From the NCBI GenBank assembly GCA_963840885.1, contig CAWJAN010000001.1, positions 115,051-179,050 on the forward strand: DNA of 64,000 nt, read 5' to 3'. A program made the position numbers and the translations under genes. Under the pieces are notes generated by a model. That model did not search any database and had not been told where the DNA came from. It saw nothing but the letters and a program-made list of their open reading frames with translations. The DNA is from an uncultured bacterium. GTDB taxonomy: Bacteria > Patescibacteriota > Minisyncoccia > Phycocordibacterales > GWA1-40-21. Each line of letters starts with the position of its first letter. The first letter of the stretch is position 1. Positions 13,082 to 40,363 of this stretch are shown here, piece after piece.

Positions 13082-13426
13082 TTAAGGGAGAGTTGGCAAA
13101 GTTACGGAAGAATTGCCGGTGCCAAACGTATTTACGAGTATTGCTACAAGTCCCCAGACAGAAACCATGACGAAGATTCCCACGATACCCCAGATCATCT
13201 GACCTTTGGCTTTCGACTTCTTTTCATCGCTGTCGGCAATGACAAATACGAAAACTTGCCATATGAAATAAACGACGGCAACCGCAATAAGAACAGGAAG
13301 AATAAGGTTTGCCAGCTGGTGGACATAATTGATGAGTCCGACTACTCCCTGGGTAGGCGTATATTGCGCAAGAGCCACTAAAGGCAAGAAGCTCGATACG
13401 GCCACTGCTGATATCTTTTTTAACAT
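13082..13426 (-). CDS. TrbC/VirB2-pilin-like small secreted membrane protein, paralog 2
   Basis: Signal peptide MLKKISAVAVSSFLPLVALA, then TM1, loop DSDEKKSKAKGQ, and TM2 MIWGIVGIFVMVSVWGLV. The internal ATG at 13424-13426 is the preferred start. Confidence 0.6.
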   Translation of the reverse strand: MLKKISAVAVSSFLPLVALAQYTPTQGVVGLINYVHQLANLILPVLIAVAVVYFIWQVFVFVIADSDEKKSKAKGQMIWGIVGIFVMVSVWGLVAILVNTFGTGNSSVTLPTLP

Positions 13427-13537
13427 AAACTGATTGTTTTTAAATAAACTATTAAATTTTAAAGCGACCAAAATTACGACTTTACATAATTATAAACTGA
13501 CTTATATAAGAGGGCAAGTCTCGTTATCTACACAAAA

Positions 13538-13945
13538 CTAAGGGGTTGGGACATTAACAGGCCTTATCTGTATCTGGGTATCATTGAGCCTGAAAGTATA
13601 TTGGAGAATATTCACGAGCCCCCATACGGAAACCATGACGAAAAGGCCTATGATTCCGTAGATTATGAAATCCTTGGCTTTCTTTTTATTGTCACCTTCG
13701 GCTCTTATGAAAGTGAAAACTCCCCAAAGAAAAGCCAGCACCGCTACAGCCATAAGAACTGGAACAAGAGGATTTATTATGCATCCTATAAACATATTCA
13801 TTACAAGTTCCTTGAAATTTCTCGGGGCCAAGCTGCAGGTAAAACCAGTGAGCGACAAATTGCTCTGGGCATATGAAGAGCCGTAAAACATTCCGAATAC
13901 GAGTGGAGAAACGGATATTGCAAAAATTTTAGCTCTTTTTTTCAT
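13538..13945 (-). CDS. TrbC/VirB2-pilin-like small secreted membrane protein, paralog 3
   Basis: Signal peptide MKKRAKIFAISVSPLVFGMFYGSSYA, then TM1, loop EGDNKKKAKD, and TM2 FIIYGIIGLFVMVSVWGLV. Confidence 0.6.
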   Translation of the reverse strand: MKKRAKIFAISVSPLVFGMFYGSSYAQSNLSLTGFTCSLAPRNFKELVMNMFIGCIINPLVPVLMAVAVLAFLWGVFTFIRAEGDNKKKAKDFIIYGIIGLFVMVSVWGLVNILQYTFRLNDTQIQIRPVNVPTP

Positions 13946-13950
13946 AAAAA

Positions 13951-14292
13951 TTATTGTCCAACTGACTTAATGGTTCCAACAACAAGTGACGCCAGAAGCT
14001 GTGCTCCGAGAAGTATTGCAACGCCTATTACTGTATAAAAGAAGAGTTCTTTTGCTTTCTGAATTTCAGCCGGTTTACCCTGTGCGCGTACGAATACAAA
14101 GCCAGACCAAATAAAGGCAACAATCGCTACAACTACTCCTACTCTTGTAATATAAGTAAGGACTATAGAGACAAGATTTGGAACATTTGTAGTACCTAAA
14201 GGATTTACTATCTGAGCGAAAGAAACAAATGGCATAGCAAGCTGAACAAGAGTTAGACCGCCTATTTTTTTAAACTGTAATATTTTTTTCAT
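13951..14292 (-). CDS. TrbC/VirB2-pilin-like small secreted membrane protein, paralog 4
   Basis: Signal peptide MKKILQFKKIGGLTLVQLAMPFVSFA, then two TM segments separated by the QGKPAEIQKAKE loop. The start is set at the internal ATG at 14290-14292 to avoid overlap with paralog 5. Confidence 0.55.
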   Translation of the reverse strand: MKKILQFKKIGGLTLVQLAMPFVSFAQIVNPLGTTNVPNLVSIVLTYITRVGVVVAIVAFIWSGFVFVRAQGKPAEIQKAKELFFYTVIGVAILLGAQLLASLVVGTIKSVGQ

Positions 14293-14312
14293 ATTTTTAT
14301 TTTTAATAAATT

Positions 14313-14702
14313 TTATTGACCGCCCAAGAATCTGAGCGCCGAGCCGGCATTCGGAACTATCCACTTGATAACCGTATAAACCGCAAGCCAAGAACAAAGG
14401 ACTATAATCATTCCTATAATGGTATTTTTGAACATATTTTTGGCTGCAGTTCTTTCTCCAGGGTTATTAGGATGCAAAAGCATTTTTCCTCCGGCTATTG
14501 CAAATGTAACAGCCGCAACTGAAATTGAAATGCCTAAAAAATATTTTAAGATATTATTTATCAGCTGTATGAAACTGTTGAAATTGCAATCCTGACCATT
14601 ACAAGGAATCACTCCTCCGCTTGATTGCGCGTAAGCCAAAAGCGGCAGAAAAACAAGCGAAGATACGGAGAATGCCAGGATTTTAGAAATATTTCTTTTC
14701 AT
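14313..14702 (-). CDS. TrbC/VirB2-pilin-like small secreted membrane protein, paralog 5 (Cys-containing)
   Basis: Signal peptide MKRNISKILAFSVSSLVFLPLLAYA, a CNGQDC motif, then TM1, loop NPGERTAAKNMFKN, and TM2 TIIGMIIVLCSWLAV. Confidence 0.55.
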   Translation of the reverse strand: MKRNISKILAFSVSSLVFLPLLAYAQSSGGVIPCNGQDCNFNSFIQLINNILKYFLGISISVAAVTFAIAGGKMLLHPNNPGERTAAKNMFKNTIIGMIIVLCSWLAVYTVIKWIVPNAGSALRFLGGQ

Positions 14703-16552: not shown

Positions 16553-16607
16553 ACGATTATCGAATAATTATAGCTTTATTGGCAAAAGAAGTCCATGAAT
16601 CGGCTAT

Positions 16608-16636
16608 TATAAAACCGCATAATACGCGGTTTTATA
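16608..16636. terminator. bidirectional intrinsic terminator
   Basis: Hairpin aaaaccgc-ataatac-gcggtttt. Confidence 0.7.
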
Positions 16637-16639
16637 AAG

Positions 16640-18109
16640 CTATTTTTTATTTTTCCACTTCTCTATCTCTTTGACTTCTTTTCTGATATATAGTTCTGCG
16701 TCTTCTAAATCATTCTTGAGCTCATTGTTGATTTCTTCTTCCTCCTCGGTCAGCTCTCTTCTGTTTTTGACTTTTTCCAGCTTTCTGATCTGCTCCACTA
16801 CACTTTCTTTAAGCAGATCAAAAGCCTTATGAATCGCATCCTCCGCTTCATCGACTTTTTTGTCTATCAGGAAGAATCTGCGCCATGCATACCATAGCAA
16901 AAGTATCAGAAGTATAATCAAGGAAAGAAGAGGAATGAATATGTCCAAGAAGCTTATGGCCCAGTTTCCTATTATGATTATAGCTGGAGGCCTGACGCTT
17001 ATGCTTATTTCCTTGCTTGACGAGCTTACCGCGCCGCGGCTATCGGTTATCTCTGCCCATATCGTATATGTGCCGTCTTTTAATCCTTCAGTCGATACTA
17101 CCGTGAAATTGCCGCTTGAATCTACACTCGAAATATATTTCCTGATATATCCGCTTGAGTCTTTCAGATAAAGATCCGCTTCGGAATTAAAATATTTCGT
17201 TGTTCCGGACACCGACAAGATGTCGTCTGTTTTTAGGTTTATAGGATAATTGGTTATTATAGGGGCTTCAAGCGATTGCACGAAGAACTGTGCGGAATTT
17301 ATCAGGATATTTCCAAGCTTGCTTACAGCTTTTACCAAAAGAGTATGATTGCCGGCTTCTTGTATCGGAGTCTTATAAATATGGCTGCCGTCGTCATTCC
17401 AGATTTCACTGCTATTATTGTCTATCTGGATTTCGTAATGATCTACGGAATAAGTGCTGTCGGATACGGAAAGCTTGAAGCTTGCCACTGGATCCGTAAG
17501 ATCAGTTCTTTTTATTTCAGTTATATTTAAAACGGCTTGCCCCGTAGACGGAGTAGGCGTCGGCTGATTTTTTACATCCAAAATTGTATATGATGCCTGG
17601 CCGGTGCCCGTAGTTATATCGGTGCCGGAACCGTCGGCTGCAAGGACCGATCCTGAGGTAAAAGACAAGTTTGCCGTCCCGGGTGCCAAAGCCTTAAACG
17701 TAATCGATATTATATTTCCCGAGGAACCTTGGTACCATGGCGGCAAAACTACGCCTTCAAAACTTATTGTGCCTTCAATATTAGAAGAAGCCGGTTCTTG
17801 CGCCCAAAAACCGAATATTGAGCTGCTTTTTGAAATAGAAGAAACTGAAATCAGGTTTGCAGGAAAAGAAATGATTCCTGAAGCGGCATTCATGACTTTG
17901 TCAGCGCTCGAAACCAATACATTTACGGTAAAATAAGAGCCTTTGGTATATGTGCCTGAATTCGGAGACAGCAAGAGCGTAGCCGCCGAAGCTTTAAAGG
18001 CATTTGGAATAAAAAAGGCCGTGATAATGGATAGCAGAAAAAATGTTTTAATAAAAATATCATTAAAACGGCTACAGGAATTTTTTATGTTTGGCTTAAA
18101 CGTTCCCAT
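16640..18109 (-). CDS. cohesin-like domain surface protein with C-terminal TM anchor and coiled coil
   Basis: Signal peptide, then a beta-sandwich segment reading LLLSPNSGTYTKGSYFTVNVLVSS...ISFPANLISV...ISITFKALAPGTANLSFTSGSVLAADGSG, a cohesin-type pattern. A C-terminal TM helix and a charged coiled coil follow. The ATG overlaps the stop of the upstream gene (TAATG). Confidence 0.5.
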   Translation of the reverse strand: MGTFKPNIKNSCSRFNDIFIKTFFLLSIITAFFIPNAFKASAATLLLSPNSGTYTKGSYFTVNVLVSSADKVMNAASGIISFPANLISVSSISKSSSIFGFWAQEPASSNIEGTISFEGVVLPPWYQGSSGNIISITFKALAPGTANLSFTSGSVLAADGSGTDITTGTGQASYTILDVKNQPTPTPSTGQAVLNITEIKRTDLTDPVASFKLSVSDSTYSVDHYEIQIDNNSSEIWNDDGSHIYKTPIQEAGNHTLLVKAVSKLGNILINSAQFFVQSLEAPIITNYPINLKTDDILSVSGTTKYFNSEADLYLKDSSGYIRKYISSVDSSGNFTVVSTEGLKDGTYTIWAEITDSRGAVSSSSKEISISVRPPAIIIIGNWAISFLDIFIPLLSLIILLILLLWYAWRRFFLIDKKVDEAEDAIHKAFDLLKESVVEQIRKLEKVKNRRELTEEEEEINNELKNDLEDAELYIRKEVKEIEKWKNKK

Positions 18110-18993
18110 TATTTTTTATTCTTCCTTCTTTGAAATATGAAATATGCGCAAGCAACTGAAATTACCATTATAATTATAAACCAGACTTCTATATTTTCAT
18201 ACCAAGGCAACGGATTTTGTGGGGATAATTTTTCAATCCTGGTATTTCCTTTCTTATCGATGGCTTTAACGTAAATATAGCTCCTTAAATCCTGATCGGC
18301 CAATACGTACGGGCTTGTTGCAGGAACCCATTTTGAAAAATCAAATATAAAGTACCTGGATTCCTTTACCTCATATCCTGCTATACCAGAACCTTTGTCT
18401 TCGGCCGCAAAAGATAAAAACCATTTGCCGTCAAAAATATTCGGATCACGTGATATCTCCGGCTTGAAAGCTTCCGGGGGCTCGTTATCGGCAATATTAA
18501 GAGATGGTGAGCTTGTAGGAATGACGGAACTTGAAATATTCAAATTCAGGTCGGATGTCTTTATTTTATCCGCAGTACCGTTGCCATCATTCAGCAAAGC
18601 GCTTGCATTTGTAATTTTTATCGGAGCGCTTCCCTCTTTCTTCGTTTTAAATATAAGAGACAGTACAAAACCTTTATCCAAAATGAATCCGCCTGGAGTT
18701 ATCCCGGAGAAAACTATTTCTCCGTTAAGGAGTGCCGGCTGGTCCACCCAGAAATTTACAACGGAATTACCTATTCTTATTTCTGACAGATCCAATAAGT
18801 TCGCAGGAAAATATATCTTTCCGCTTACTGCATTTATATTCTCCTTTTCCGTATTTATGTTCAGATCAACCTCAAATTCCTGCCCTATAGATAAGCTTTT
18901 GCTTGCGGTATCAAAAGAAAATTCAGAACCGAATGCCGATTTCGGGCAAAAAATCACTAAAAATAATAAGGTTATATAAAATTTATTTTTCAT
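18109..18993 (-). CDS. cohesin-like domain surface protein with C-terminal TM anchor
   Basis: Signal peptide, then LSIGQEFEVDLNINTEKENINAVSGKIYFPANLLDL...LSLIFKTKKEGSAPIKITNASALLNDGNGT, which parallels the neighbouring cohesin-like gene. The C-terminus is VWFIIIMVISVACAYFIFQRRKNKK. Confidence 0.5.
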   Translation of the reverse strand: MKNKFYITLLFLVIFCPKSAFGSEFSFDTASKSLSIGQEFEVDLNINTEKENINAVSGKIYFPANLLDLSEIRIGNSVVNFWVDQPALLNGEIVFSGITPGGFILDKGFVLSLIFKTKKEGSAPIKITNASALLNDGNGTADKIKTSDLNLNISSSVIPTSSPSLNIADNEPPEAFKPEISRDPNIFDGKWFLSFAAEDKGSGIAGYEVKESRYFIFDFSKWVPATSPYVLADQDLRSYIYVKAIDKKGNTRIEKLSPQNPLPWYENIEVWFIIIMVISVACAYFIFQRRKNKK

Positions 18994-19050
18994 CTTGTGA
19001 TAATTGTTTTCATTTTAATTTTATGGTTCTCCTGGATTTTTAGATTTGCC

Positions 19051-20385
19051 TTATCCGGTCCAATAATATGCCATTATGGAAAAGTCTACGAGATCGATCT
19101 TTCCGTCTCCGTTCAGTTCTGTTTTTTCTATCTTACTGAAAGCATCGCTTAAAGTATTTTTATACCAATACGATCCTATGGAAAAATCTACGAGATTTAC
19201 TTTACAATCCCCGTTTAAATCTCCCTTTATGGGACATTTTATGACGGGCAATGCGGCGACATTCTGGTCTCCGACCAAAAATGATACGGTCTGGCTGAAA
19301 TCGGATATCGATTGATCTGATGCCGAAGCTTTTGATTTTGTCATGTGCGTTCCCAGATCGACTTGCGAAGTGTCGAAATTATAAAGATATATTCCATTTT
19401 TATCTGAAGATGTGGTGGCAAAAATCTCTTGCGGAGAATGAACGGATATTATTATATTCGCATCATCGGCAGATTGCCCGAAAATCGCTATATTGTCCCC
19501 TTGTTTCACTTCGCTTTTATCCACGGCTATTGTTGGAGCTATAAAAATTCCGCTGACATTTGTGGTTGCTCCGTAAGTAACGCTTACCGGAAATGTCAGG
19601 CTTGTTGACCTGTTTCCCTGATAATCTTCCGAATAGACGCTGAAGAAATAATTCCCTCCTGAAATTCCGTTCAATGTTATTTGGAAATTGGAATCCGTGC
19701 CGGCAACAGTAGAAGCCGCAACTTGCGCATCCTTCAGCAAAGTTACTGTGCTTTGAGGATAGGCTCTTCCAGAAAATACAACTGATGTTGCGCCGCCTCC
19801 TCCGCCTCCTCCTCCGCCCCCGCCTCCTCCGCCTGCAGGCGGCGGCGCAGCAGGCGTGGAAGAAACTTGCGTTGATGTAGCTATTATATTTCCGAATGCG
19901 TCTTCGACTCTTATTACAAAATAATACGCCGTTCCGTTCGATAATCCGGTCTTTACATAAGAAAGGACGTTTCCCAAAGATGGGCCGAAAGTATAGGGGC
20001 CTCCGGATAGGGTGGAAACGCCTACGTCATAACCGGATGCTGTCCAGCCTAAAATGCCTGTGGCTGATGTCCACAACAAAGTTACTTGGGAATCGCCAGC
20101 TGTTGCCGATACTGCAGGAGTGCTTACAAAAGGAAAATATAAAAATCCCGAGTTTATTTTAAAATCCGTGGCGGTACTCGTGCCTATTCCGATTTGTCCT
20201 AGAGTGCTTATAAGGGTATAGCTTGTCGACGAAGAGAGTCCGCCGCCGTTTGATTCCACTGGATCCAGTATTTTATAATCGACGGAGGAATATTCCGCTG
20301 CGAAAAGATTTCTGCCTGTAAAAATAGCGGCAAACAAAAAAAATAATATTGCCGACAGCCTTATTTTTTTGTGCAACTTGTTCAT
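19051..20385 (-). CDS. secreted FN3/Ig-like protein with poly-Gly tract and C-terminal type I dockerin
   Basis: Signal peptide present. An FN3-like segment reads YDVGVSTLSGGPY...GTAYYFVIRVEDAFGN. There is a run of 14 Gly. The C-terminus carries duplicated calcium-binding dockerin segments DLNGDCKVNLVDFSI and LNGDGKIDLVDFSIMAYYW. Confidence 0.6.
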   Translation of the reverse strand: MNKLHKKIRLSAILFFLFAAIFTGRNLFAAEYSSVDYKILDPVESNGGGLSSSTSYTLISTLGQIGIGTSTATDFKINSGFLYFPFVSTPAVSATAGDSQVTLLWTSATGILGWTASGYDVGVSTLSGGPYTFGPSLGNVLSYVKTGLSNGTAYYFVIRVEDAFGNIIATSTQVSSTPAAPPPAGGGGGGGGGGGGGGATSVVFSGRAYPQSTVTLLKDAQVAASTVAGTDSNFQITLNGISGGNYFFSVYSEDYQGNRSTSLTFPVSVTYGATTNVSGIFIAPTIAVDKSEVKQGDNIAIFGQSADDANIIISVHSPQEIFATTSSDKNGIYLYNFDTSQVDLGTHMTKSKASASDQSISDFSQTVSFLVGDQNVAALPVIKCPIKGDLNGDCKVNLVDFSIGSYWYKNTLSDAFSKIEKTELNGDGKIDLVDFSIMAYYWTG

Positions 20386-20410: not shown

Positions 20411-20824
20411 TTAATTGCCCTTTGGTGTTGCAGCTGTTGCCGTAGTGGTGGAAATTTCGCTTGTATCTATAGGAGCTATTTCAACCACTTTATCTTCGCT
20501 TGGGTCAAATAATATGGCCTTCTGGGCTTTTATATAAATGAGTATCTTGTCGCCGACTTTAGCATTCTCGAAAAACGGCTGGCCTTTGAGCGCATTCGTA
20601 TCGGTTACTGTGGCTATGGTAGGAGTTTCATCTGTAGGCAAAACAACGAGCTTGCTAACCGATGATACTAGCTGATTTATCTCATTCTGTGCGGCCTGGT
20701 CAGATGTTTTTGGAACTTGCGCAAGCTTGATACATAAGAAGACTATAACTGCGAGCGATAAGAAAAACAGAAACCAAGGAATCATTATCTGATATTTGCT
20801 TTTGAGTTTTATTTGAGGGAACAT
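20411..20824 (-). CDS. small N-terminally anchored membrane protein, unknown function
   Basis: Single N-terminal TM (IMIPWFLFFLSLAVIVFLCI) with an extracytoplasmic tail. Confidence 0.4.
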   Translation of the reverse strand: MFPQIKLKSKYQIMIPWFLFFLSLAVIVFLCIKLAQVPKTSDQAAQNEINQLVSSVSKLVVLPTDETPTIATVTDTNALKGQPFFENAKVGDKILIYIKAQKAILFDPSEDKVVEIAPIDTSEISTTTATAATPKGN

Positions 20825-20867: not shown

Positions 20868-23800
20868 TTAAAAGACTGCGGTAAATACCTTTTTTATAAA
20901 ATCCCAAATATAATCCGTGAACTGGCCTGAGATGGCGGCTGTCGCCAGCATAAATATACTGTCTCCTTTTATAAGGCCTACATCTCCGCCTCCTCCTCCC
21001 TCATTTTGAGTCGTTGTCGATGTGGTAGTGGCTGTTGATGATGATTGCTCCGTGCCTGAACCTCCTCCAAAATTTCCGCCGGACTGAGAGCCGTTCGGCG
21101 CATTGCCTGATTCTACATTTGAGCCGCCTCTCGGCTTGATAATAACTGGGGCAGCAACAGAAATCTGCGGCTGTACCGTATATGTGAATTTAGACGCATC
21201 GCCGGCATTTGTCACCCTGAAGCAATAATTTGATCCAGTTACGACATTGCTTGTGGAGCGTACCGAATACTCGAGCTCGGTAAACTGGCTATTGGTTAAT
21301 GTTATTGCGGGAGTCTGATTGCTTGAAGTCTTAACATAACCTGGCACGAATGTCTTATTTGCCGGATCGGCAATGCCTGCGGAATCAGTTGTCAGAGAAT
21401 TATCGGCTACATTGCTCGACCAATCCATTGTCCATGGACCGGTAGAAGTTGAAGATGGCACGGCAGTCCAGGTAGAGCAGGAATCGCTTGGCGATGCGTA
21501 TTCCAGGCGGTACTGATAATTTGTGGCCGTATTGCTCCCTGTATTTGAAATCTGCACTCTCAATCTATCGCGGTCTCCTATTACAACGCCGGACGTCAAA
21601 GCCGTGTTTGTAGCGGCGGCATAGCTTGCATTTACTTCATTGCTATCATCTAATCTCCAGCGGTAATTCAGCTGCGTCAGAGCTGCAGTTCCGTTGCCCC
21701 AGCTGACTTCCCAATCATTAAGGTTTGGCGTACCGCCTCCGAGATCTGAAAGCGTAGCTTTAAGATATAGCGTTGCATTATTTCCTGTAGTCGAGATATC
21801 CGAAAGGTCTATAGAGCATGAGCTTGCGCCATTTTGTATAGTGCAGGTTTTTCCGCTTATGGCAGATTGCGTCGAATCAAGAACCTGTACAATGATGTTC
21901 GAATTAAGAGTAGTCGTGGCATCAACTGCAACTCCACCCCATGATGCAACGCCTGGAACAAAATTAAATTTTATTGCCGGAGAAATTATCGTTCCCTGAG
22001 ATCCTGCGGCTGCAGTCGAAGTCGGAGCCGAAGCGCCGTTTAATCCTACACCGAAAACATCAAAGCTTGCACCAGTTCCATCATTGTGAAAATCAAATAT
22101 TCCTATCCATCCGGCAGCGGTAATGAGACTTGATGTGGCTGTTAAATCCCATGTTGCAGGTTCAGGATTGGAATCCAGCCATGTTTTATAGCTAAAATTA
22201 GTTCCTTCAAAACTGGCTCTTGCATCATACCAAGTATTTGTTGACGGTGTGAATAAAGATGAAGAAAGAGTGGTAAATGAGTTAGAACTAAAGTAACCGA
22301 TTTGTTCTCCGTTTGATGGCTGATTAAAACCTGATCTTAGCGTGGTAATAGCTCCTGACGTAGCTCCACTGGCTCGATCAAGAACATCGGCATCATCATT
22401 TGTTGACGGAACCTTATATCTGAAAAATATCTCGGCATCAGGAGAAACATTATCCAATAAATTCCAAGATAAAGCTCTTCTCAAACTTGAATTTGCTCCG
22501 CCTACCTGAAGAACTTTGCTTCCAGTTGCTGTGACATCACTTTGCACAAGCCAAGAAGAAGTGGCTTCGCTATCGTATCGTTTTGTCCAATCGCTCGGCG
22601 CGCTTCCTGTAGCATATCCGGAAAAATCCGTGAAATATGTCGAGACGGTATGAGAACCCAATATTAAAGATTCTGATCCCGTAGCCATCAGAGTTTGCGG
22701 ATCGGAAATGCTGTTATAAAATGTTGCCGGCGAATTCTGGTCGTTATATTCCGTGGCAATCCAGCCCGAAGAAAGGGCGGTATTAGAAATCTGGACTTCG
22801 TCCAGCAAGCCGCTGTTAAAAAAGCTGCTTCCTCCTCGCGACATAAGATATACCGGAACATTGCCGAAGTTATTGGTATTGTCGGTATTTGTAGGATACG
22901 AAGTTGGCGTTTGTAGCGTTCCGTCTATATACAATGCTACTTCATTGACAGCTTGGCTCTTATCAAACACTGCAACATACTGGTGCCAAGCTCCTGCACT
23001 CGGCCTCGTATAGCATGCTTGGTTATATCCGACATCTCCTAATATAGAAATCTGAACATATCCTGAACACGGAGCGGAGCTATTCGGATCAATGAAATAA
23101 CCGGTTGTATAAAGATTGGAGTTAGTCGTTCCCTCTATAGCCATCTGATCTCCGGTTCCAAACGAACTCTGATTCAACCAAAGCGAAACAGTTATGGCAT
23201 TCGTCGCGCTAGAATCTACGGCTGGTGCAGAAACGGAATTGCTTGTTCCATTGAAATTCAAGCTTCCATCAATCTTTCCGGGGACTTGGGCACTGGAAAG
23301 CATGGATCCGATAGATGTTCCGTTGTTAGCGTTTGAGGTGCTGTCCTTCATCTGAGGAGCAACCCCGGCAGGATTTTCTTCCAAATGCCATACTGCCCTA
23401 TAATTTGAGTTCCAAGTGCTGGTGCTATTTTCTTGGTCAGGAGCGGTGCTCGAGCCGTAGTACATATATATCTGGGTATCAGCAGATGACGAAAGAGACG
23501 GAATATTGACCCAGGCATTAAGGGCTCCGGTACTGCTTGAATATGATTCTCGCTGGTATGGAAGAGTGGTGGTGCCGTTTGATGATGTGAAAACTATGTC
23601 ATTGCCGCTTGACTCTGCGTGAGAAGCGAGATCTGAATCGGTCAAACTGATAAGGGCTGGAAAATTCGCATACGAAGCGCTGTTGCTGCTCACTTTCGTA
23701 TGATCGATAGTGATAAGCTTTCGGTATGGAAAACTCGTATTGTACCAATTAGTTGATGAAACGGCGGACGAACCAGTGGCTTGCGTGCTGCTCAAAGTTC

Positions 23801-26800
23801 CGGTATTGAATTGCGCGCTTGATGTCTGGAACCAATCAGGATTTCCTGTAGGAGATGATGAGGCATATGTGAATGTCCAAGTCCCTGATGACCAGCTCCC
23901 ATAAGTGCCTCCTCCGTCATTAGAAGCTCTTGCGCGGACATAATATGTTTCCCCATCCGTTGTAGACAGAGCAGGCGAAAGGCTTGCGGCTGAAAGATTA
24001 TAAGCGGTGCCTGAAGTATATGTTCCTGAAAAAGTTTCCCTGTGAGCCGTTCCGGTGAAATCAGATACGTCATTGAGTTCAATCTGAAAACTGTTGGAGC
24101 TTATGGAACTTGTGGCTGATACTCTGAAAATCGGCGTGGTCGTAGCCTGCCTTATATTATTGAAAGCGATTTGGTTTGAACCTCCATCATCATTATAAAA
24201 CACAGGGGCATTAGGAGCTGTCACAGTCTTATAAGCAACTGTCCAGTCATTAAGAGTGGCTCCGGATGTGATGGAAGCTTTCAAGCAAATGGTTGAATAA
24301 GTCGAGGTGCTGAGCCCGGAAAGATTTATTGGGCTGCTTGCAAAACCCGTGCTGTTTCCCGAGAGATCGCCGTCTGGAATTATTGTGCTGCAGCTAGCTC
24401 CATAATAGACCTGCATGGATACGGTTCCTGAAGTTGCGGTTTTTGACCATGATGCAGAATCCCAGCTCGTCGCGCCTGGTACGAAACTATAATTTATCGG
24501 GGATGACATAATGGAACCAGAACTGGAAGGATTAATTAAAACGGTTGCAGCATCGGGAGAGGTTGCTGAACCAGAAAGGGTCCAAGTATTTGATATGCCG
24601 GTCGATGTATCGGTCGTTAAAGCATTTCGTGAAGCTGCATAAGTTGCGTGATACTGCGGCCTTGCTGTTTGGTCTTCAGTCCAGCCTCCGCTGACGCTGC
24701 TGAGTGTCAGACCGCCGGCTGAGCCATCATCTGTTTCCATGCTCGACAAAGCCAAGGTGCCGATGACGCTTGGAGTAACCGTCGGTGAAGTTTGCGTGCC
24801 AGTATTTGAACTGCTTTGGTTTATGGGAGTAACCGAATTTTCACCTTGAATTTCATACAATACGCCAGACTGCCATTCAACTGTCCCGCTAATCGGAAAG
24901 GTATATCCTGTCCCGTCTCCTCCTTGAACTATTTTCCACCAAACAGTAAGCTGTGCGGTGCCGTTTGTTTGATCTTGAATCTTAGTCCAGGTTCCATCCG
25001 GAGCCGATGTGGTTCTGTCCAGCGAATAATCGGAATTTCCGACAAACGCGACCAAAAGATCTCCGACAGCCGGCTGCAAACTTAATGTAAACGGAACTGA
25101 TGTCCCTGTTACAGCTGGTTCCCATTTTGTACTCTGGACTATTCCTAATGTCTGGCTGCTTGATACTCCGACTGAACCAGAACCTGTTGTTGTTGCAGAA
25201 GATAAAGTTCCTGTATTAAACTGCGCATCCGTAGTCTGAAACCATGCCGGACTGCCGCTTGATTCATAAGTGAAAGATTGCGTCGATGTCGACCAGTTGG
25301 AATAATTTGATCCGTCTGCCGATGCCCTTGCCCTTACATAATATGTGATTCCGTTTGTCGTAGGCAAGCTTGGCGACAAGCTTGACGCCAATAAATTGTA
25401 TACCGTGCCTGAAGCGTATGTGCTTGAAAAAGTCTGGGAATATGTAGTTCCGCTGAAATTAGTGGTGGTGCTGAGCTGTAATTGGAAATTCGTGAAATTC
25501 GTAGGGCTTGTAGCCGAAACCCTGAACAAAGGAGTGGTCGTGCTTTGTATTATATTGTTGAATGCGATTTGGTTTGTTCCGTCACTGTTTGAAAAAGTCG
25601 GGGTGTTTGGTTTTATAATGGCAGAAGAATAAGTTACCGTCCAATCGTTAAGAGTGGCTCCGGATGTGATGGAAGCTTTCAAGCAAATGGTTGAATAAGT
25701 CGAGGTGCTGAGCCCGGAAAGATTTATTGGGCTGCTTGCAAAACCCGTGCTGTTTCCCGAGAGATCGCCGTCTGGAATTATTGTGCTGCAGCTAGCTCCA
25801 TAATAGACTTGCATGGATACGGTTCCTGAAGTTTCTGTTTCCGACCATGTAGCCTGGCTCCATATTACCGAGCCGGGAACGAAACTGAAATTTATCGGGG
25901 ATGACATTATCGTTCCGGTTGAAGATGTGGAATATGGATATTTGACTATTACGATTCCTGAGCCTCCGGCGCCTCCGGTGTCGCTTGATCCGGAACCATT
26001 TTGTCCAGCTCCTCCTCCTCCGCCTCCTGTATTAACAGTTCCCGCTGTTCCGCTTTGGCCGGTATTGCCTCCGGCTCCTCCTCCGCCAGCTCCTCCTGCT
26101 CCGGCATTTCCAGTTCCTGTGCCCAAATGCTGAAGTCCTCCGCCTCCGCCTCCGCCATAAGTAACAGAAGAACCTGAAATAGAAGTTGTGTAGCCGTCTC
26201 CGCCTTTTCCTGCCTGAGTGGCAACTCCATTAGCACCAACTTGCGTTGCTCCTCCTCCGCCTCCGGCGGCAAAAGTTCCGTTCGTTCCGTCTCCGCTGTC
26301 ATAGCCGTTTCCTCCGGAATTTCCTTGCCCTGCCGTTCCGGCTTTACCGGAATCACCGGCATTGTGATATCCTCCTCCGCCGGAACCGCCGGCAGTCGCA
26401 GTTGAACCTTGTTGTCCGCCTCTGCCTCCGCCTATAGCCGTCAATGTTCCAAAAACAGAATTGCTGCCGGCAGTATTTGCCGCTCCTCCGCCTCCTATAG
26501 TAACCGTGTATGACTGCGGAGTTACCGCGTAAGAAGAATTATAAATGACTCCTCCGGCTCCTCCTCCGCCTCCGGTTCTGTCGGGATCATTTCCTCCTCC
26601 GCCTCCGCCGGCAACAACCAGCGCCTCGATATTTCCTGAACCGGATGTGACTTGGAATGTTCCGCTTGAAGTAAAAGAATGATAGCGATAGCCGCCTGTT
26701 GTGGTTATCGTGCCTCCGGTAGCGCTCATGAGAGGAAGCAAAATCACCTGATCGGAGCTTGCGACTGTTCCGGTTAATGTATCCGTATTGAATTGGGCAT

Positions 26801-31117: not shown

Positions 31118-34100
31118 TTATTGGCTGGAGCTTGTAGCTTCTGTACTCGTGCTGTCTGTAGTGCCGGTTGTCGTCGCCTGTTCCGTTTGAACCGGTTCGG
31201 TAACATCCACTTCTCTCGTTGCTTTTGCATTATTACCTGCAGCATCTGTTGCGGAATACGTTATCGCATATGTTCCCGCTGTGCTCGTATCTACAGTTCC
31301 GGAAGTTGTAACGGAAACGTTTCCGTCGACATCATCTGTCGCTGTCGCGCCGGCATCCGCATATGTGTCGCCCACGGTAAGGTTTACAGGATTTGAACCG
31401 TTCAGTGTTATGACCGGAGCCGTGGTGTCGGCTGGCGCTGGCGGAGTGGTTGTAGCTTCCGTATCGGTAGTCGTCGATGTCGTATCTGTTGTTGAGGCTG
31501 TATCGTCAGCCGAAGTCGTATCCGTGCTCGTTGAAGTGGTGTCGGTGCTTGTCGATGTTGTATCGGTCGAAGTTGATGTCGTGGATGATGAAGTTTCCGA
31601 GGTATCGGACGACTGATCGCTTCCCTGTCCCATTGCCGGAGACGGCGATGAAGGAATTATGGACATAAAATCTTTTGCGCCTTTCACAGCAAATGCCGTC
31701 CAGCTGAACTCGATATCTTCGGGCGCAGGATTATTTATCATTATCGTGAATCCATTCGTTGATTTATCGGCCACCAAATATTTGATCTCATTGTTGAATA
31801 TTGCGACAGAAACGGCGGCAGCATCAACTGAGCTGTCAAGAGAAATCGTGGCGTTCACTACAGGATCGACAAGATACGGCTTGTCGAATGTCACATCCAC
31901 GCTGGTAGCGCCTTTATATATGGTGGCAAATCCTGCTGTATCGGAATTGAAGTAAGGAGTGCCGAAGAAAATGGTATCCGAATTGAACGAAATTGCGTCA
32001 CTCAAAGAATTTACATGGTCTATCGTCAAGCCGTTTGCCGTTATCTGCGGCGTTATTATTTCCACTCCGGCGGCAAGCCTGCCGGTGAACAGTTCCGAGG
32101 AATTTTCTGCCGTTGATGTTCCGTTGAGAAGCTTGTCCAAAACTTGTTTTGCAAAATCGTCAGGATATATTCCATTGTCTATGTTTATTCCGGCAAATTC
32201 GCTTATGCTCTGTCCATTGTAATATCCTTGTTCAACATAAACCATTACCGTTGTCGATGTCGACGACGGAGACCATGAGCCGAGGGCTTTACCTATTACG
32301 AATCCCGCTCCGGTCGCTTTCATCGCTTTTCCAGGATCGTTTGAAGTCGTAAGATAATCTCCGGGATTTATTTCTTCCGAACTAGAGGAAATTTTTACAG
32401 GAACGCGTCCGTTAAGGGCTATCGGCATAGGATTGTCTTCCTTCTTTATATTATATCCGGCTGATGTGAAATTGCCGTGGTTGTCGGAAACTATTCCTAC
32501 AGTATTTTTCTGGTAAGGGCTGTTTGATTTTACGAGCTCTGTGATCTGGCCGAGAACATTATTGTAGTCTACAGACGTATCGGTTGCTGTGCCGTATGTG
32601 TTTACCAATTGCGAGCCGGTAACGACTATGTCGCCGTATTCGGTTCCTGTGGCGACCGGATAATTTTCAGCGTAGTCGGCGGATGGCGCTGAACTGCAAT
32701 CTCCGAGCGTATATATGCTGCCGGCCGAAGGAGATGTTCCTGTGGCCAATGTCGAACATACCGCCGTTGAAACGGTTGTAGTTGCAAGGCCGATGCTTAC
32801 TATTCCATTGCTGTTTACTGTAAATAATGACGTGTCGTTTTTCTTAAGATCTATGAAGTTTCCTGTAAACGATCCTCCGCCTTTTCCGAAATTCATCGTA
32901 AGCCCTTCTCCGGAGAATGCGGAGGTTTCCTGATAAAAGCTTGCCACTGACGTAGCTGTCGTCATGGTATTGGTGTAAAGCCTCAAGACATCTCCTTGCG
33001 TAGTTCCGTCATTTTCTGCATACAGCGCAGCAGGTAAAAGAACTCCTCCAGCATTTCCGGCAGTGATTGCCTGCAAGCCGAATGTCGCGCCGGTGGTTCT
33101 GATGCCGGTATTCACGCCGGAAGTGTTTGAACCTGCGTTCGAGACTATTTCCATTCCGCGCGTAGTATTTGCAAGAGTGGTGTTATCAACCATTCTCATG
33201 ATTTCTCCTACGACCGTATTTGCATTCGTGGTCGGCTGAACATTTACAACGAAACGGTTACCGACTTGAACGCCTCCGGCAGTAGGATTTACATTATAAT
33301 TTCCATTGATACCGGCGATGGCATTTGTAGCGCCGTCAGCCGAAACCGAACCGTCTATCAAAAGTTTCGCCAGAGAAAAAGATGTCGTTGTACCTATCAT
33401 CGCCTGGCCGCTTTGCGATATTGTGAAAAGATTTGCGCCTGTAGATGAGGAAACTGCGAACGGATTAATACCTGATGCTCCTTGTACCAAGAAACTTGAT
33501 GTTGAAGTCGTGGCGTTCACGCCAGCAACTGTTCCGTTATCGAAAAGGACGCCGGAACTTAGAGTTGAAGTGGATGTCCAGCGCGCCACCTTTCCATTAG
33601 TGCCTCCTGAAAGAATTGGTGAGGTTGTTGAAATAACATTTCCGCTTCCATCAACTGCAAGGAATGAGCCGACAAGTCCGTTGCCGAGTTTAAGATTTGA
33701 GATTGTTGTTGTTGCAAGTGTCGTCGTTCCGTTAATGGTAACTGAACCTGTGAATGTTGCTCCTGTAAGAGCTGCGAAGGTCGATGAAGCGTAAGTATAT
33801 GTCGGATAATTCGCGATTGTCGCATACGTTGATGTTCCATATGCGTATGTGGAGAATGTTGAAGATGCGTATGTGTATGTCGGATAATTCGTAAGGGTGC
33901 TAACGGTATTTGTTATGTATCCAGACGGATTAGATGCGAAATAATATGTGGAAGAAGCATAGCCAAATGATGGGAAGGTCGAGGATGCATACGTATATGT
34001 AGGAGTGTTTGCAAGAAGCGCATATGTGGAAGTTCCATAAGCATAAGTGACAAATGTTGATGATGCGTAAGTGAATGATGGGAAAGTTGAGGATGCGTAT

Positions 34101-40231: not shown

Positions 40232-40363
40232 ACAAATAATGCCTGTACACTCAAATAAATGCCTTATTTGATCAACTGGCATTATTATAACACTGTATGC
40301 ATAGAATATACAAATATATGTTGATAAAAATACGTTTAAAAATATGGATATTTTATTCCATTG

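What the first reader, a model, noticed from the sequence alone, without database searches (positions are those of the whole stretch)
16640..20385. Cohesin-dockerin pair in a non-cellulolytic minimal genome, with translationally coupled cohesin genes
The protein at 19051-20385 ends in two canonical calcium-binding dockerin segments (DLNGDCKVNLVDFSI, LNGDGKIDLVDFSIMAYYW). It follows an FN3/Ig module and a run of 14 Gly. The two genes immediately downstream on the minus strand encode signal-peptide proteins with cohesin-like beta-sandwich segments and C-terminal TM anchors. Their reading frames overlap as TAATG at 18107-18111, which implies translational coupling. This looks like a minimal scaffold-anchoring system that tethers an FN3 protein to the cell surface, in an organism with no glycoside hydrolases in view.
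Basis: partly seen in the sequence, partly recalled or inferred. Interest (0 to 1): 0.75.

Follow-up and report, generated by a model that had tools for sequence, protein, structure and literature searches.

The report
Conserved cohesin–dockerin surface anchor in Patescibacteria
Three neighbouring genes in this tiny-genome (Patescibacteria) bacterium encode a secreted, non-enzymatic protein ending in a dockerin plus two membrane-anchored proteins carrying cohesin modules, and this same gene trio is conserved in hundreds of related species, so it looks like a dedicated "plug-and-socket" system for fixing one surface protein to the cell rather than a cellulose-degrading machine.

Summary
All three minus-strand ORFs, the two dockerin segments, the 14-Gly run and the TAATG stop/start overlap are at the stated coordinates.

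**Domain calls**
- The window's own Pfam scores fall just under threshold: Dockerin_1 22.7 bits (cutoff 22.9), Cohesin about 17.5 (cutoff 24.1).
- Relatives score well. Dockerin_1 is found in 51/57 DocP relatives. Cohesin is found in 25/44 CohB and 13/58 CohA relatives.
- The DocP family profile hits at least six solved dockerins.
- AlphaFold models of both cohesin proteins (pLDDT 87–89) match solved cohesins, best to type I (TM 0.75–0.78).

**Conservation**
- The organism is a Patescibacterium. No glycoside hydrolase is in view.
- Starting from CohA in species genomes, DocP lies directly upstream in 60/61 loci and a CohB-type gene directly downstream in 69/71.
- Starting from DocP in metagenomes, a cohesin gene follows in 64/65 loci.
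- The dockerin subtype is found almost only on the DocP body (Ig–Ig–dockerin). This is a one-cargo anchor, not an enzyme scaffold.

**Limits and verdict**
- Binding, calcium dependence and biological role are inferred, not shown.
- Non-cellulosomal cohesin–dockerin pairs are a known kind, and some relatives already carry automatic cohesin or dockerin names.
- I found no paper describing this operon.
- Verdict: new variant of a known kind, moderate interest.

The parts
19051..20385 (-). DocP gene (444 aa): secreted, non-catalytic all-beta protein that ends in a dockerin
   Evidence: ORF. One N-terminal hydrophobic segment only. Pfam hits to Big_6, Dockerin_1 and Big_13. Family of at least 1754 clusters.
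20299..20385 (-). DocP signal peptide (residues 1-29, ...NLFA|AE)
   Evidence: Hydrophobic segment at residues 10-30, the only one in the protein. Read from the sequence.
20122..20298 (-). DocP N-terminal conserved module 'DocPN' (residues 30-88), no known family; optional in relatives
   Evidence: No Pfam hit. Family HMM E 2.5e-27. Present in only some DocP relatives.
19852..20121 (-). DocP FN3 domain (residues 89-178)
   Evidence: PDB hits 3mpc, 9vsf, 1k85 and titin FN3. Pfam fn3 in 23/57 relatives.
19792..19833 (-). Run of 14 Gly codons (residues 185-198), a flexible hinge
   Evidence: Gly runs of 3-14 occur at this position in 57 relatives.
19252..19791 (-). DocP Ig-like domains Ig1 (residues 199-275, Big_6/Big_13) and Ig2 (276-378); with the dockerin they form the conserved core
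   Evidence: Pfam Big_6 E 2.2e-5 here and found in 51/57 relatives. Ig1-Ig2-Doc is the commonest architecture among dockerin-subtype hits.
19054..19236 (-). Dockerin module (residues 384-444): Ca loop plus helix at 389-410 and again at 423-444; conserved Cys384/Cys394 pair
   Evidence: Pfam Dockerin_1 at 22.7 bits covering profile positions 1-53 of 57. PDB dockerins 5nrm_B, 2y3n_B, 2yik, 4fl4, 1daq and 2mte. Found in 51/57 relatives. Position frequencies and Cys co-occurrence. Most conserved DocP module at 0.68 mean identity.
18109..18993 (-). CohA gene (294 aa): signal peptide, cohesin, second beta domain, C-terminal TM anchor
   Evidence: ORF. AF2 model with pLDDT 88.8. Topology.
18529..18927 (-). 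CohA cohesin module (residues 23-155)
   Evidence: Pfam Cohesin E 3.9e-3 covering profile positions 4-130 of 139. Found in 13/58 relatives, best E 2.9e-6. Foldseek top ~40 hits are almost all solved cohesins, including 2w1n at 4.4e-11 and 2xdh at TM 0.77.
18220..18459 (-). CohA second beta domain (residues 179-258, weak OmpL47-type/Ig-like), a membrane-proximal spacer
   Evidence: NCBIfam NF047446 E 1.5e-4, below its cut-off. Beta strands in the model. Homologous domain in the CohB family.
18124..18201 (-). CohA TM helix (residues 265-290), followed by QRRKNKK
   Evidence: Hydropathy. Model helix at 268-293.
18107..18111 (-). TAATG: the CohA stop TAA and the CohB start ATG share base 18109
16640..18109 (-). 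CohB gene (489 aa): signal peptide, cohesin, two beta domains, TM, cytoplasmic coiled-coil tail; paralogue of CohA
   Evidence: ORF. AF2 model with pLDDT 87.4. BLASTP to CohA E 8e-14. hhalign of the two families E 7.5e-40.
17576..17983 (-). CohB cohesin module (residues 43-178)
   Evidence: Pfam Cohesin E 4.9e-3 here. Found in 25/44 relatives, best E 2.9e-9. Foldseek single-domain matches 3ul4_A TM 0.78, 1g1k TM 0.76, 6kgc TM 0.75.
16991..17530 (-). CohB Ig-like spacer domains (residues 194-373; Big_13)
   Evidence: Pfam Big_13 E 1e-7 here and found in 44/44 relatives. Model strands.
16643..16984 (-). CohB TM segment (residues 376-412) and conserved charged helical tail (413-489)
   Evidence: Hydropathy and composition, 19 K/R and 23 D/E in 79 aa. 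Model helices at 376-450 and 455-488. Tail mean identity 0.48.
16607..16637 (-). Terminator-like hairpin immediately after the CohB stop; likely 3' end of the transcription unit
   Evidence: Consensus scan. Sequence. RNA fold -19.1 kcal/mol, z -4.2, with 0/200 shuffles as good.
20411..20824 (-). 137-aa single-TM protein directly upstream of DocP; accessory gene conserved at this position in closer relatives
   Evidence: ORF. TM segment. Homologues directly upstream of DocP in most of the best-scoring of 16 loci.

Best explanation
This is a dedicated, non-cellulosomal cohesin-dockerin anchoring module of the Patescibacterial cell envelope.

Proposed mechanism:
1. DocP is exported by its signal peptide. 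Its layout is N-terminal module, FN3, Gly14 hinge, Ig, Ig, dockerin.
2. The C-terminal dockerin folds around Ca2+. Its first loop is fully canonical, and the module is probably stapled by a Cys384-Cys394 disulfide.
3. The dockerin plugs into the membrane-distal, type-I-like cohesin of CohA, CohB or both.
4. CohA and CohB are paralogous type-I membrane proteins. CohA holds its cohesin on a short stalk of one beta domain. CohB holds it on a longer stalk of two, and in most relatives three, beta domains.
5. CohB also has a conserved cytoplasmic coiled-coil tail that could oligomerise or contact a cytoplasmic partner.
6. The two dockerin halves are nearly symmetrical (LVDFSI in both), so either orientation, the 'dual binding mode', is plausible.
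7. The three genes form one unit. The CohA stop and CohB start overlap, and a hairpin follows CohB.

The result is a non-enzymatic Ig/FN3 fibre fixed to the cell surface. Its most likely role is as a constitutive envelope or contact structure of these episymbiotic bacteria.

Shown: domain identities (sequence and predicted fold), predicted topology, strict operon conservation, and one dedicated dockerin cargo.
Inferred: physical binding, Ca dependence, which cohesin is used, and the biological role.
For: Dockerin:
- Pfam Dockerin_1 hit covers the near-full profile.
- At least six different solved dockerins are hit by the family profile.
- Dockerin_1 is found in 51/57 relatives.
- D1, N3, D5 and D12 of loop 1 are invariant, and D5 and D12 of loop 2 are conserved.

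Cohesins:
- Pfam Cohesin is found in 25/44 CohB and 13/58 CohA relatives.
- Confident AF2 models were obtained for both proteins.
- Foldseek top hits are solved cohesins, best to type I, including 3ul4 at TM 0.78 and 2xdh at TM 0.77.

Topology: DocP has only a signal peptide. CohA and CohB each have a signal peptide plus one TM segment followed by basic residues.

Linkage:
- DocP lies directly upstream of CohA in 60/61 genome loci, and CohB lies directly downstream in 69/71.
- Starting from DocP, a cohesin gene follows in 64/65 metagenome loci, with 2-3 cohesin genes in 43/43 loci that have room.
- The flanking genes differ between genomes.

Dedication:
- About 125 of the top 149 clusters carrying this dockerin subtype have the DocP body.
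- There is one dockerin and two cohesins in the whole window.
- The dockerin is the most conserved part of DocP.

Operon signals: the TAATG overlap uses the only available start codon, and a hairpin follows CohB.
Against: - No binding, Ca or localisation data exist, and a model of the complex could not be run.
- The window's own Pfam scores are below the gathering thresholds.
- The CohA family profile hits PDB cohesins only at E 0.08-0.4, and the CohB family profile hits none by sequence.
- The second Ca loop usually lacks an acidic residue at position 1.
- Two or three cohesin types for a single dockerin is unexplained.
- DocP is about 60% identical across very divergent lineages. That fits a structural role better than host-specific adhesion, so the biological role remains open.
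- Only 64 kb of the genome was seen, so other dockerin proteins could be encoded elsewhere.
Confidence: 0.65

Rival explanations
1. These are co-located envelope proteins that merely share the cohesin and dockerin folds and do not bind each other. The dockerin-like tail is a Ca-stabilised EF-hand-type module that binds something else, such as peptidoglycan, a host surface or another DocP. The cohesin-like sandwiches bind other ligands. Synteny would then reflect a shared envelope function only.
For: - The window's own cohesin scores are sub-threshold, and sequence matches of the family profiles to PDB cohesins are weak or absent.
- The second Ca loop is degenerate.
- Animal TMEM132 proteins carry a cohesin-Ig-TM architecture, and no dockerin homologue is detectable in vertebrate proteins (PMC6030884).
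Against: - Adjacency is near-obligate in both directions: 60/61, 69/71 and 64/65.
- The dockerin is the most conserved DocP module, and this subtype is dedicated to DocP.
- The same residues are invariant in both cohesin paralogue families, and they fall in model strands 3, 5, 6 and 8, which form the canonical dockerin-binding sheet of type I cohesins. Whether they face outward was not checked.
- In every system studied, cohesins and dockerins encoded together pair with each other (established knowledge).
Confidence: 0.17
2. It is a minimal cellulosome-like enzyme scaffold. The cohesins would recruit dockerin-bearing hydrolases encoded elsewhere in the genome for polysaccharide or host cell-wall degradation, and DocP would be only one of several cargos.
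For: - Only 64 kb of a contig of at least 248 kb was inspected.
- There are 2-3 cohesin genes per locus.
- One relative carries a second Doc-Coh-Coh cluster (L003).
Against: - DocP has no catalytic domain.
- Each cohesin protein carries a single cohesin, so there is no multi-cohesin scaffoldin.
- In an exhaustive search of 1.84 billion representatives, this dockerin subtype sits almost only on the Ig-Ig body.
- No glycoside hydrolase or other dockerin is present in the window.
Confidence: 0.03
3. It is a trans-envelope coupling device rather than a passive anchor. CohB would link the extracellular DocP fibre to a cytoplasmic partner through its conserved coiled-coil tail and transmit force or occupancy, for example during host attachment. 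CohA would act as a second, tail-less receptor.
For: - The CohB tail is conserved (mean identity 0.48, several positions at 90% or more) and is predicted as long helices continuous with the TM segment.
- The architecture parallels TMEM132, which was proposed to connect the extracellular medium to the actin cytoskeleton (PMC6030884).
- Giant surface proteins and, in one relative, type IV pilus genes lie next to the module.
Against: - No cytoplasmic partner gene is conserved in the neighbourhood.
- The tail matches nothing beyond generic coiled coils such as ATP synthase b, at E about 0.7-1.
- A charged tail can simply be a stop-transfer or oligomerisation element.
Confidence: 0.15

Closest known systems
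Cell-surface anchoring scaffoldins of Clostridium (Acetivibrio) thermocellum (OlpA, OlpC, SdbA, OlpB/Orf2p)
   Same: A single surface-attached protein presents a cohesin that captures a dockerin-bearing partner at the cell surface. The OlpA type I cohesin (3ul4) is the best single-domain structural match to CohB (TM 0.78, rmsd 2.6 A). OlpC (4dh2) is among the CohA hits.
   Different: Those anchors attach through SLH repeats to the cell wall, and they capture enzymes or the enzyme-loaded CipA scaffoldin. Here the anchor is a C-terminal TM helix, with a cytoplasmic tail in CohB. The cargo is a single non-catalytic Ig/FN3 protein, and the organism is not cellulolytic.
Ruminococcus flavefaciens ScaE-CttA type III XDoc-cohesin pair
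   Same: A one-cohesin anchor tethers a non-enzymatic adhesion protein to the cell surface. An Ig-like module directly precedes the dockerin, as Ig2 does in DocP. This comparison rests on my own knowledge of the literature.
   Different: ScaE is sortase-anchored (LPXTG). The CttA dockerin is type III with an X-module and inserts. The models here match type I cohesins better (TM 0.70-0.78) than type II or III ones (0.50-0.62 for most). Whether Ig2 acts as an X-module was not testable.
Non-cellulosomal cohesin-dockerin modules (Peer et al. 2009, as cited in PMC6030884 and PMC10066038): Clostridium perfringens toxin-complex cohesins (2w1n, 2jh2, 2vo8) and the Archaeoglobus fulgidus cohesin (2xdh)
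   Same: Cohesin and dockerin modules are used outside cellulose degradation. 2w1n (a cohesin plus FN3 double module) is the top Foldseek hit for both CohA and CohB. 2xdh gives TM 0.77 for CohA.
   Different: In C. perfringens the modules sit on secreted glycoside hydrolases and assemble enzyme complexes. Here there are no enzymes, the cohesins are membrane-anchored, and the genes form a fixed three-gene operon conserved across a whole lineage.
TMEM132 / choanoflagellate coherin architecture (cohesin, three BIG domains, TM, cytoplasmic tail)
   Same: The domain order is the same as in CohB: a membrane-distal cohesin, Ig-like spacers, a single TM and a cytoplasmic tail. TMEM132 was proposed to be an adhesion molecule (PMC6030884).
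   Different: TMEM132 is eukaryotic and no dockerin partner is detectable. Homology to CohB beyond the shared domain types was not tested here.
Dockerin repeats in giant ORFs of Omnitrophota nanobacteria
   Same: Non-cellulosomal dockerins in ultra-small, host-dependent bacteria, proposed to serve as adhesins (PMC10066038).
   Different: There, nine dockerins sit in one giant ORF and no partner cohesin operon was described. Here there is one terminal dockerin on a 444-aa protein with adjacent cohesin genes, and the giant proteins next door carry no dockerin.

Membership tests
Dockerin (Pfam PF00404, type I-like) | Match to the family profile over the whole ~60-aa module | tested here: met
   The window protein scores 22.7 bits against a cut-off of 22.9, E 1.2e-4, covering profile positions 1-53 of 57. 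That is marginally below the cut-off. 51/57 close relatives match at E<=0.01, best 4.4e-9. The family profile hits the solved dockerins 2y3n_B (8.7e-5), 5nrm_B, 2yik, 4fl4, 1daq and 2mte.
Dockerin (Pfam PF00404, type I-like) | Tandem duplicated ~22-residue segments, each a 12-residue EF-hand-like Ca loop (D1, N/D3, D/N5, D12) followed by a helix | tested here: met
   Segment 1 (389-410) has D1, N3, D5 and D12 invariant in 57/57. Segment 2 (423-444) has N3 in 47/57, D5 in 56/57 and D12 in 57/57, but position 1 is Glu here and K/R in 31/57 relatives. The second loop is therefore one ligand short in most relatives.
Dockerin (Pfam PF00404, type I-like) | Ca2+-dependent folding and binding to a cognate cohesin | not testable with these tools
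   This needs ITC or pull-down with and without EDTA, or complex prediction. Structure-prediction jobs were exhausted, and the tool takes single chains only.
Cohesin (Pfam PF00963) | Match to the family profile | tested here: inconclusive
   The window's CohA scores 17.8 bits and CohB 17.5 bits against a cut-off of 24.1, with E about 4e-3 but near-full coverage. Relatives reach significance: 25/44 in the CohB family (best 2.9e-9) and 13/58 in the CohA family (best 2.9e-6). The two families are clear homologues of each other (hhalign E 7.5e-40). Four of the five weak PDB hits of the CohA profile are cohesins.
Cohesin (Pfam PF00963) | Nine-stranded beta-sandwich (jelly-roll) fold of ~140 aa superposable on solved cohesins | tested here: met
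   CohA model (pLDDT 88.8): the top ~40 Foldseek PDB hits are almost all cohesins, with E from 4e-11 to 2e-5 and TM up to 0.77. CohB model (pLDDT 87.4): the best single-domain hits are type I cohesins at TM 0.72-0.78 and rmsd 2.6-3.0 A. These are predicted structures, not solved ones.
Cohesin type I versus type II/III | Type II/III cohesins carry extra flaps and a helix and are ~170 aa; their dockerins come with an X-module | tested here: inconclusive
   Both models superpose better on type I cohesins (TM 0.70-0.78) than on most type II/III ones (0.50-0.62). An Ig-like domain (Ig2) directly precedes the dockerin, as in X-Doc dyads. No DocP model could be made to test this.
Cellulosome (enzyme-integrating cohesin-dockerin system) | Scaffoldin with multiple cohesins, several dockerin-bearing carbohydrate-active enzymes, and a CBM | tested here: not met
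   Each protein has one cohesin. There is one dockerin in the window, on a non-catalytic protein. No GH or CBM was found in any gene tested. The dockerin subtype is confined to the Ig-Ig body across 1.84 billion representatives.
Surface-anchoring cohesin proteins (SLH- or sortase-anchored) | SLH repeats or an LPXTG sorting signal as the wall anchor | tested here: not met
   No SLH or LPXTG family hit in Pfam or NCBIfam. Each protein instead has a hydrophobic TM helix followed by basic residues. It works like an anchoring cohesin but uses a different anchor.

The most novel reading that the evidence does not exclude
The DocP-CohA-CohB operon encodes a lineage-defining trans-envelope structure of Parcubacteria-type Patescibacteria. 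In this reading, a mechanically strong cohesin-dockerin joint fastens an extracellular Ig/FN3 fibre to a membrane protein whose conserved coiled-coil tail reaches into the cytoplasm. CohB has a TMEM132-like cohesin-Ig-TM-tail architecture. The structure would work together with the neighbouring giant surface proteins as the force-bearing host-attachment or envelope apparatus of these episymbionts. That would make it a new biological use of the cohesin-dockerin pair, and it is testable in the cultivated Minisyncoccus/Microsyncoccus-methanogen co-cultures.
Probability: 0.2. Interest if true: 0.75.

Novelty: new variant of a known kind. Interest (0 to 1): 0.55.

Why it matters
Patescibacteria (CPR) are a very large and mostly uncultivated part of bacterial diversity. 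They live attached to host cells, and little is known about how their envelope is built or how they hold on to hosts.

A three-gene module that is nearly invariant in order, highly conserved in sequence, and present in at least 311 species genomes is a concrete handle on that envelope. One of those genomes belongs to a cultivated archaeal parasite.

If the cohesin-dockerin joint is functional, several things follow:
- This very strong protein-protein lock, best known from cellulosomes, would serve as a core structural anchor in minimal-genome symbionts.
- It would be an easily testable pair of small domains (about 65 aa and about 135 aa) for biochemistry and for labelling CPR cells.
- It would add a membrane-helix-anchored, single-cargo architecture to the known repertoire.

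If the two modules do not bind, the finding reduces to correct domain annotation of three surface proteins.

Tried and rejected
1. Single-sequence PDB searches with CohA and CohB found no cohesin. Family-profile PDB searches were weak for CohA (E 0.08-0.4) and empty for CohB. Fold comparison was needed to settle the cohesin question.
2. The exact-sequence contig look-up for the window's CohA returned nothing. The organism is therefore inferred from its relatives.
3. The 444-aa DocP was not recovered at 100% identity in the protein database (best hit 70%), although CohA and CohB were. The cause is unknown; a candidate cap or a gene-calling problem at the poly-Gly run are possible.
4. Literature searches on cohesin/dockerin with Patescibacteria, CPR, Parcubacteria and DPANN found no description of this operon. 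The hits were rumen or biogas CAZyme surveys and Omnitrophota papers.
5. The Kuroda 2024 and Nakajima 2025 papers on cultivated relatives do not mention these genes. The expression table is truncated in the held copy and PMX.50 had only a few thousand reads, so no expression evidence could be extracted.
6. Peer et al. 2009 is not held. It is cited only through other papers' reference lists and my own knowledge.
7. The cellulosome interpretation was rejected; see the membership test.
8. I first suspected a ~400-nt insertion inside CohA in some loci, because tblastn matches were longer there. This is more simply explained by HSPs to the adjacent paralogous CohB cohesin being joined. ORF/HMM analysis shows intact CohA ORFs there, for example in L047.
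9. Inter-protein covariation was considered and not attempted. The dockerin interface positions are almost invariant, and only about 60-140 pairs were in hand, so the test would have no power.
10. Sigma-70-type promoter matches were not above shuffled expectation (18 found against 13.6 ± 3.9). The 5' end of the transcription unit is undefined.

Full report
**1. What is there**

Region 16640-20385 holds three consecutive minus-strand ORFs. I call them DocP (19051-20385, 444 aa), CohA (18109-18993, 294 aa) and CohB (16640-18109, 489 aa).

- DocP ends in ...GDLNGDCKVNLVDFSI...ELNGDGKIDLVDFSIMAYYWTG.
- It contains a run of exactly 14 Gly at residues 185-198.
- It contains an FN3 domain.
- The CohA stop and the CohB start overlap as TAATG at 18107-18111 and share base 18109.
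- That ATG is the only ATG/GTG/TTG in the first 45 codons of CohB.

Hydropathy gives the following topology:
- DocP has only a signal-type N-terminal segment.
- CohA has a signal segment plus a TM helix at 265-290, followed by QRRKNKK.
- CohB has a signal segment plus a TM segment at 374-416, followed by a 79-aa highly charged tail.

A strong hairpin lies immediately after the CohB stop at 16607-16637 (-19.1 kcal/mol, z -4.2). It probably ends the transcription unit. The 5' boundary is undefined, because all genes from about 42.9 kb down to about 13 kb lie on the same strand.

**2. Is the dockerin a dockerin?**

- The window protein hits Pfam Dockerin_1 over profile positions 1-53 of 57. The score is 22.7 bits, a hair under the 22.9-bit cut-off.
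- It aligns end to end with solved dockerins (5nrm_B, 2y3n_B).
- A profile of 57 family members hits 2y3n_B (8.7e-5), 5nrm_B, 2yik, 4fl4, 1daq and 2mte. At the C-terminus it hits nothing except dockerins.
- 51 of 57 relatives match Dockerin_1 individually, best E 4.4e-9.
- In the first Ca loop, D1, N3, D5 and D12 are invariant in 57/57.
- In the second loop, D5 (56/57) and D12 (57/57) are kept and N3 is usual (47/57).
- Position 1 of the second loop is Glu in this protein and Lys or Arg in 31/57 relatives.
- Cys384 and Cys394 co-occur: both present in 35 relatives, neither in 19, only one in 3. This suggests a disulfide stapling the lead-in to loop 1, which fits an extracellular module.
- The two halves are nearly symmetrical at the helix positions (LVDFSI in both).

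**3. Are the cohesins cohesins?**

Sequence evidence:
- In this genome alone the evidence is weak: Pfam Cohesin 17.8 and 17.5 bits against a cut-off of 24.1, though with near-full coverage.
- Single-sequence PDB searches find nothing.
- The families make the case. Cohesin is detected in 25/44 CohB relatives (best 2.9e-9) and 13/58 CohA relatives (best 2.9e-6).
- CohA and CohB are paralogues: BLASTP 29% identity, E 8e-14, and hhalign E 7.5e-40.

Fold evidence:
- AlphaFold2 models built on these alignments are confident: pLDDT 88.8 for CohA and 87.4 for CohB.
- For CohA, the top ~40 Foldseek PDB hits are almost all solved cohesins. 2w1n scores 4.4e-11, and the A. fulgidus non-cellulosomal cohesin 2xdh gives TM 0.77.
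- For CohB, multi-domain Ig/FN3 arrays appear among the hits, as expected for a protein with several beta domains. All the high-TM single-domain hits are type I cohesins: 3ul4 0.78, 1g1k 0.76, 6kgc 0.75.
- Type II and III cohesins fit less well, at 0.50-0.62 for most.

The residues invariant in both paralogue families are an Asn in strand 3, a Trp in strand 5, Gly/Pro in strand 6, and an N/D-D-G-x-G-T motif after strand 8. These strands form the dockerin-binding sheet of type I cohesins. I could not check which way the side chains face, so this is only suggestive.

**4. Whose genome, and is it non-cellulolytic?**

- All homologues come from Patescibacteria/Parcubacteria-type MAGs.
- The window itself carries DprA, TopA, RelA/SpoT, ParB, MiaA, MurJ, GyrA, S1, Pth, signal peptidase, YbeY, FtsA, FtsZ and TrxB.
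- It also carries an ABC-2 transporter, a solute-binding protein, a methyltransferase, four T4SS-pilin-like genes, RNase P RNA and five tRNAs.
- It carries three very large surface proteins.
- No glycoside hydrolase or CBM was found in any gene tested.

**5. The main result beyond the finding: a conserved, self-contained operon**

Starting from CohA in species genomes:
- The named lineages include Wolfe-, Vogel-, Veblen-, Doudna-, Sung-, Magasanik-, Azam-, Jorgensen-, Nomura-, Campbell- and Portnoybacteria, Paceibacterota and Minisyncoccia.
- One locus (L047) is from the cultivated archaeal parasite Ca. Microsyncoccus archaeolyticus.
- With family HMMs on the 80 fetched loci, a dockerin-bearing DocP homologue lies directly upstream of CohA on the same strand in 60/61 loci with enough upstream DNA. 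The 61st has it too, behind an extra cohesin gene.
- A CohB-type gene lies directly downstream in 69/71 loci.

Starting from DocP in an independent collection of metagenome contigs:
- A cohesin ORF starts within 700 nt downstream in 64/65 loci.
- All 43 loci with enough room carry two (33) or three (10) cohesin genes.

Other points:
- Genes flanking the module differ from genome to genome. They include type IV pilus genes, LepA, two-component systems and an amidase.
- In closer relatives, a 137-aa TM protein (20411-20824 here) is found directly upstream of DocP, and a giant surface protein related to the 3054-aa protein recurs nearby.
- CohA/CohB junctions overlap in 57/75 relatives by a first-ATG heuristic, and in gene calls from public annotation.

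**6. One cargo, not a display platform**

- An exhaustive phmmer search of 1.84 billion representative proteins with the 65-aa dockerin found 1908 clusters at E<=1e-3 and 342 at E<=1e-10. The dockerin is nearly always at the extreme C-terminus of proteins of 300-470 aa.
- Of the top 149, about 125 carry the DocP body, and the commonest architecture is Ig1-Ig2-Doc.
- The N-terminal module and the FN3 are optional.
- The remainder are fragments or distant multi-dockerin repeat proteins at 30-39% identity.
- Within the window, family HMMs with filters off find one dockerin and two cohesins. None are in the giant proteins.
- The dockerin is the most conserved DocP module (0.68 mean pairwise identity). 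All DocP domains are unusually conserved at about 0.6.

**7. Mechanism proposed**

DocP is secreted. Its dockerin folds with Ca2+ and inserts into the cohesin of CohA, CohB or both. These stand on one (CohA) or two to three (CohB) Ig-like spacers above a single TM helix. This displays an Ig-Ig stalk, a Gly hinge and a distal FN3 plus N-terminal module at the cell surface. The CohB conserved coiled-coil tail may oligomerise or contact a cytoplasmic partner.

Shown:
- Domain identity.
- Predicted topology.
- Operon linkage.
- Dedication of the dockerin subtype to DocP.

Inferred:
- Binding.
- Ca dependence.
- Which cohesin is used.
- Biological role.

The high conservation of DocP argues for a constitutive envelope or contact structure rather than a rapidly evolving host-specific adhesin. 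The variable distal end could still be the contact surface.

The rivals are no direct binding, an enzyme display platform, and a trans-envelope coupling device. They are weighed in their own section.

**8. Comparison with what is known**

- Functionally, it works like the cell-surface anchoring cohesins of cellulosomal bacteria (OlpA, OlpC, SdbA, ScaE). In its non-enzymatic cargo it resembles ScaE-CttA.
- It differs in anchor (a TM helix rather than SLH repeats or a sortase signal), in cargo (one dedicated all-beta protein), in gene organisation (a fixed operon) and in host organism.
- It belongs to the known class of non-cellulosomal cohesin-dockerin modules (Peer et al. 2009, as cited in PMC6030884 and PMC10066038; C. 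perfringens and A. fulgidus structures among the top fold hits).
- The CohB domain order parallels eukaryotic TMEM132 (PMC6030884).
- It is not a cellulosome. That membership test fails on multi-cohesin scaffoldin, enzymes and CBM.

**9. Novelty and score**

- NCBI's pipeline already names some relatives 'cohesin domain-containing protein' or 'dockerin type I repeat-containing protein'. The domain calls are therefore not new.
- The window's own CohA has no precomputed Pfam domain, and CohB has only Big_13.
- I found no paper in the searchable library that describes this operon or its conservation in Patescibacteria. That includes the papers on the cultivated relatives.
- I rate it a new variant of a known kind, with interest 0.55. 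It is a solid, testable, lineage-wide surface module in a poorly understood group, but it is built from a well-known interaction pair and has no functional data yet.

Noticed in passing
window 20868-28052, 28094-31090, 31118-40282 (all minus strand): Three very large secreted proteins (2394, 998 and 3054 aa) lie directly upstream of the module on the same strand. Their Pfam hits are Gly_rich_2 and DUF2341 on the 2394-aa protein and Bact_surface_Ig-like on the 3054-aa protein. Relatives of the 3054-aa protein lie within 8 kb of the DocP-Coh module in 16 other loci. None of the three carries a dockerin or a cohesin.
   Followed up: partly
window 20868-21130 and 28094-28360 (C-termini of the 2394-aa and 998-aa proteins): Both proteins end with the same motif...GGSGTEQSSSTATTT(V)STTT...GGGGGDVGL..., followed by a hydrophobic stretch. 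This may be a shared C-terminal sorting or anchoring signal.
   Followed up: no
window 34001-40000: GC skew is very strong (0.24-0.40) inside the 3054-aa gene, far above the rest of the window. It probably reflects repetitive, compositionally biased coding sequence.
   Followed up: no
window 13082-14702 (minus strand): Four tandem small genes encode T4SS-pilin-like (PF18895/TrbC) proteins, just downstream of a solute-binding protein and a methyltransferase. T4SS pilins were among the most highly expressed secreted proteins in cultivated relatives (PMC10936435).
   Followed up: no
P0020, P0021, P0036, P0055, P0142, P0169 and others; L007 4184-5458: In several relatives the CohA or CohB gene product is fused in-frame to a small PF05635/PF22296 domain (four-helix bundle, '23S rRNA intervening-sequence protein') or a PF13366 domain (GxxExxY). 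In L007 it forms an N-terminal extension of CohA. These look like small mobile genes that have landed in the operon's intergenic spacers.
   Followed up: no
L003 14303-17298 (and the giant ORF from 17434): One relative carries a second, divergent Doc-Coh-Coh cluster: a 360-aa dockerin protein plus 204-aa and 415-aa cohesin proteins. It lies immediately next to a giant protein of more than 3400 aa that is homologous to the window's 3054-aa protein.
   Followed up: no
window 16640-18109 versus alignment A2: The window's CohB (489 aa) lacks a domain of about 95 aa (consensus THPD..KWY...W...DG.WYFH) that most CohB relatives (~580 aa) have between the cohesin and the next beta domain.
   Followed up: no
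window 19051-20385: The exact DocP sequence was not returned by the homology search (best 70% identity), although CohA and CohB from the same 247.9-kb contig were found at 100%. The 14-Gly run is the longest among 57 relatives. A gene-calling or assembly difference at the (GGN)14 tract is possible.
   Followed up: no
L001 13488-20725: In one close relative the module is immediately followed by a type IV pilus gene set (PilM, T2SSE/PilB, a second T2SSE, T2SSF/PilC). This adjacency is not seen in the window or in the other loci inspected.
   Followed up: partly
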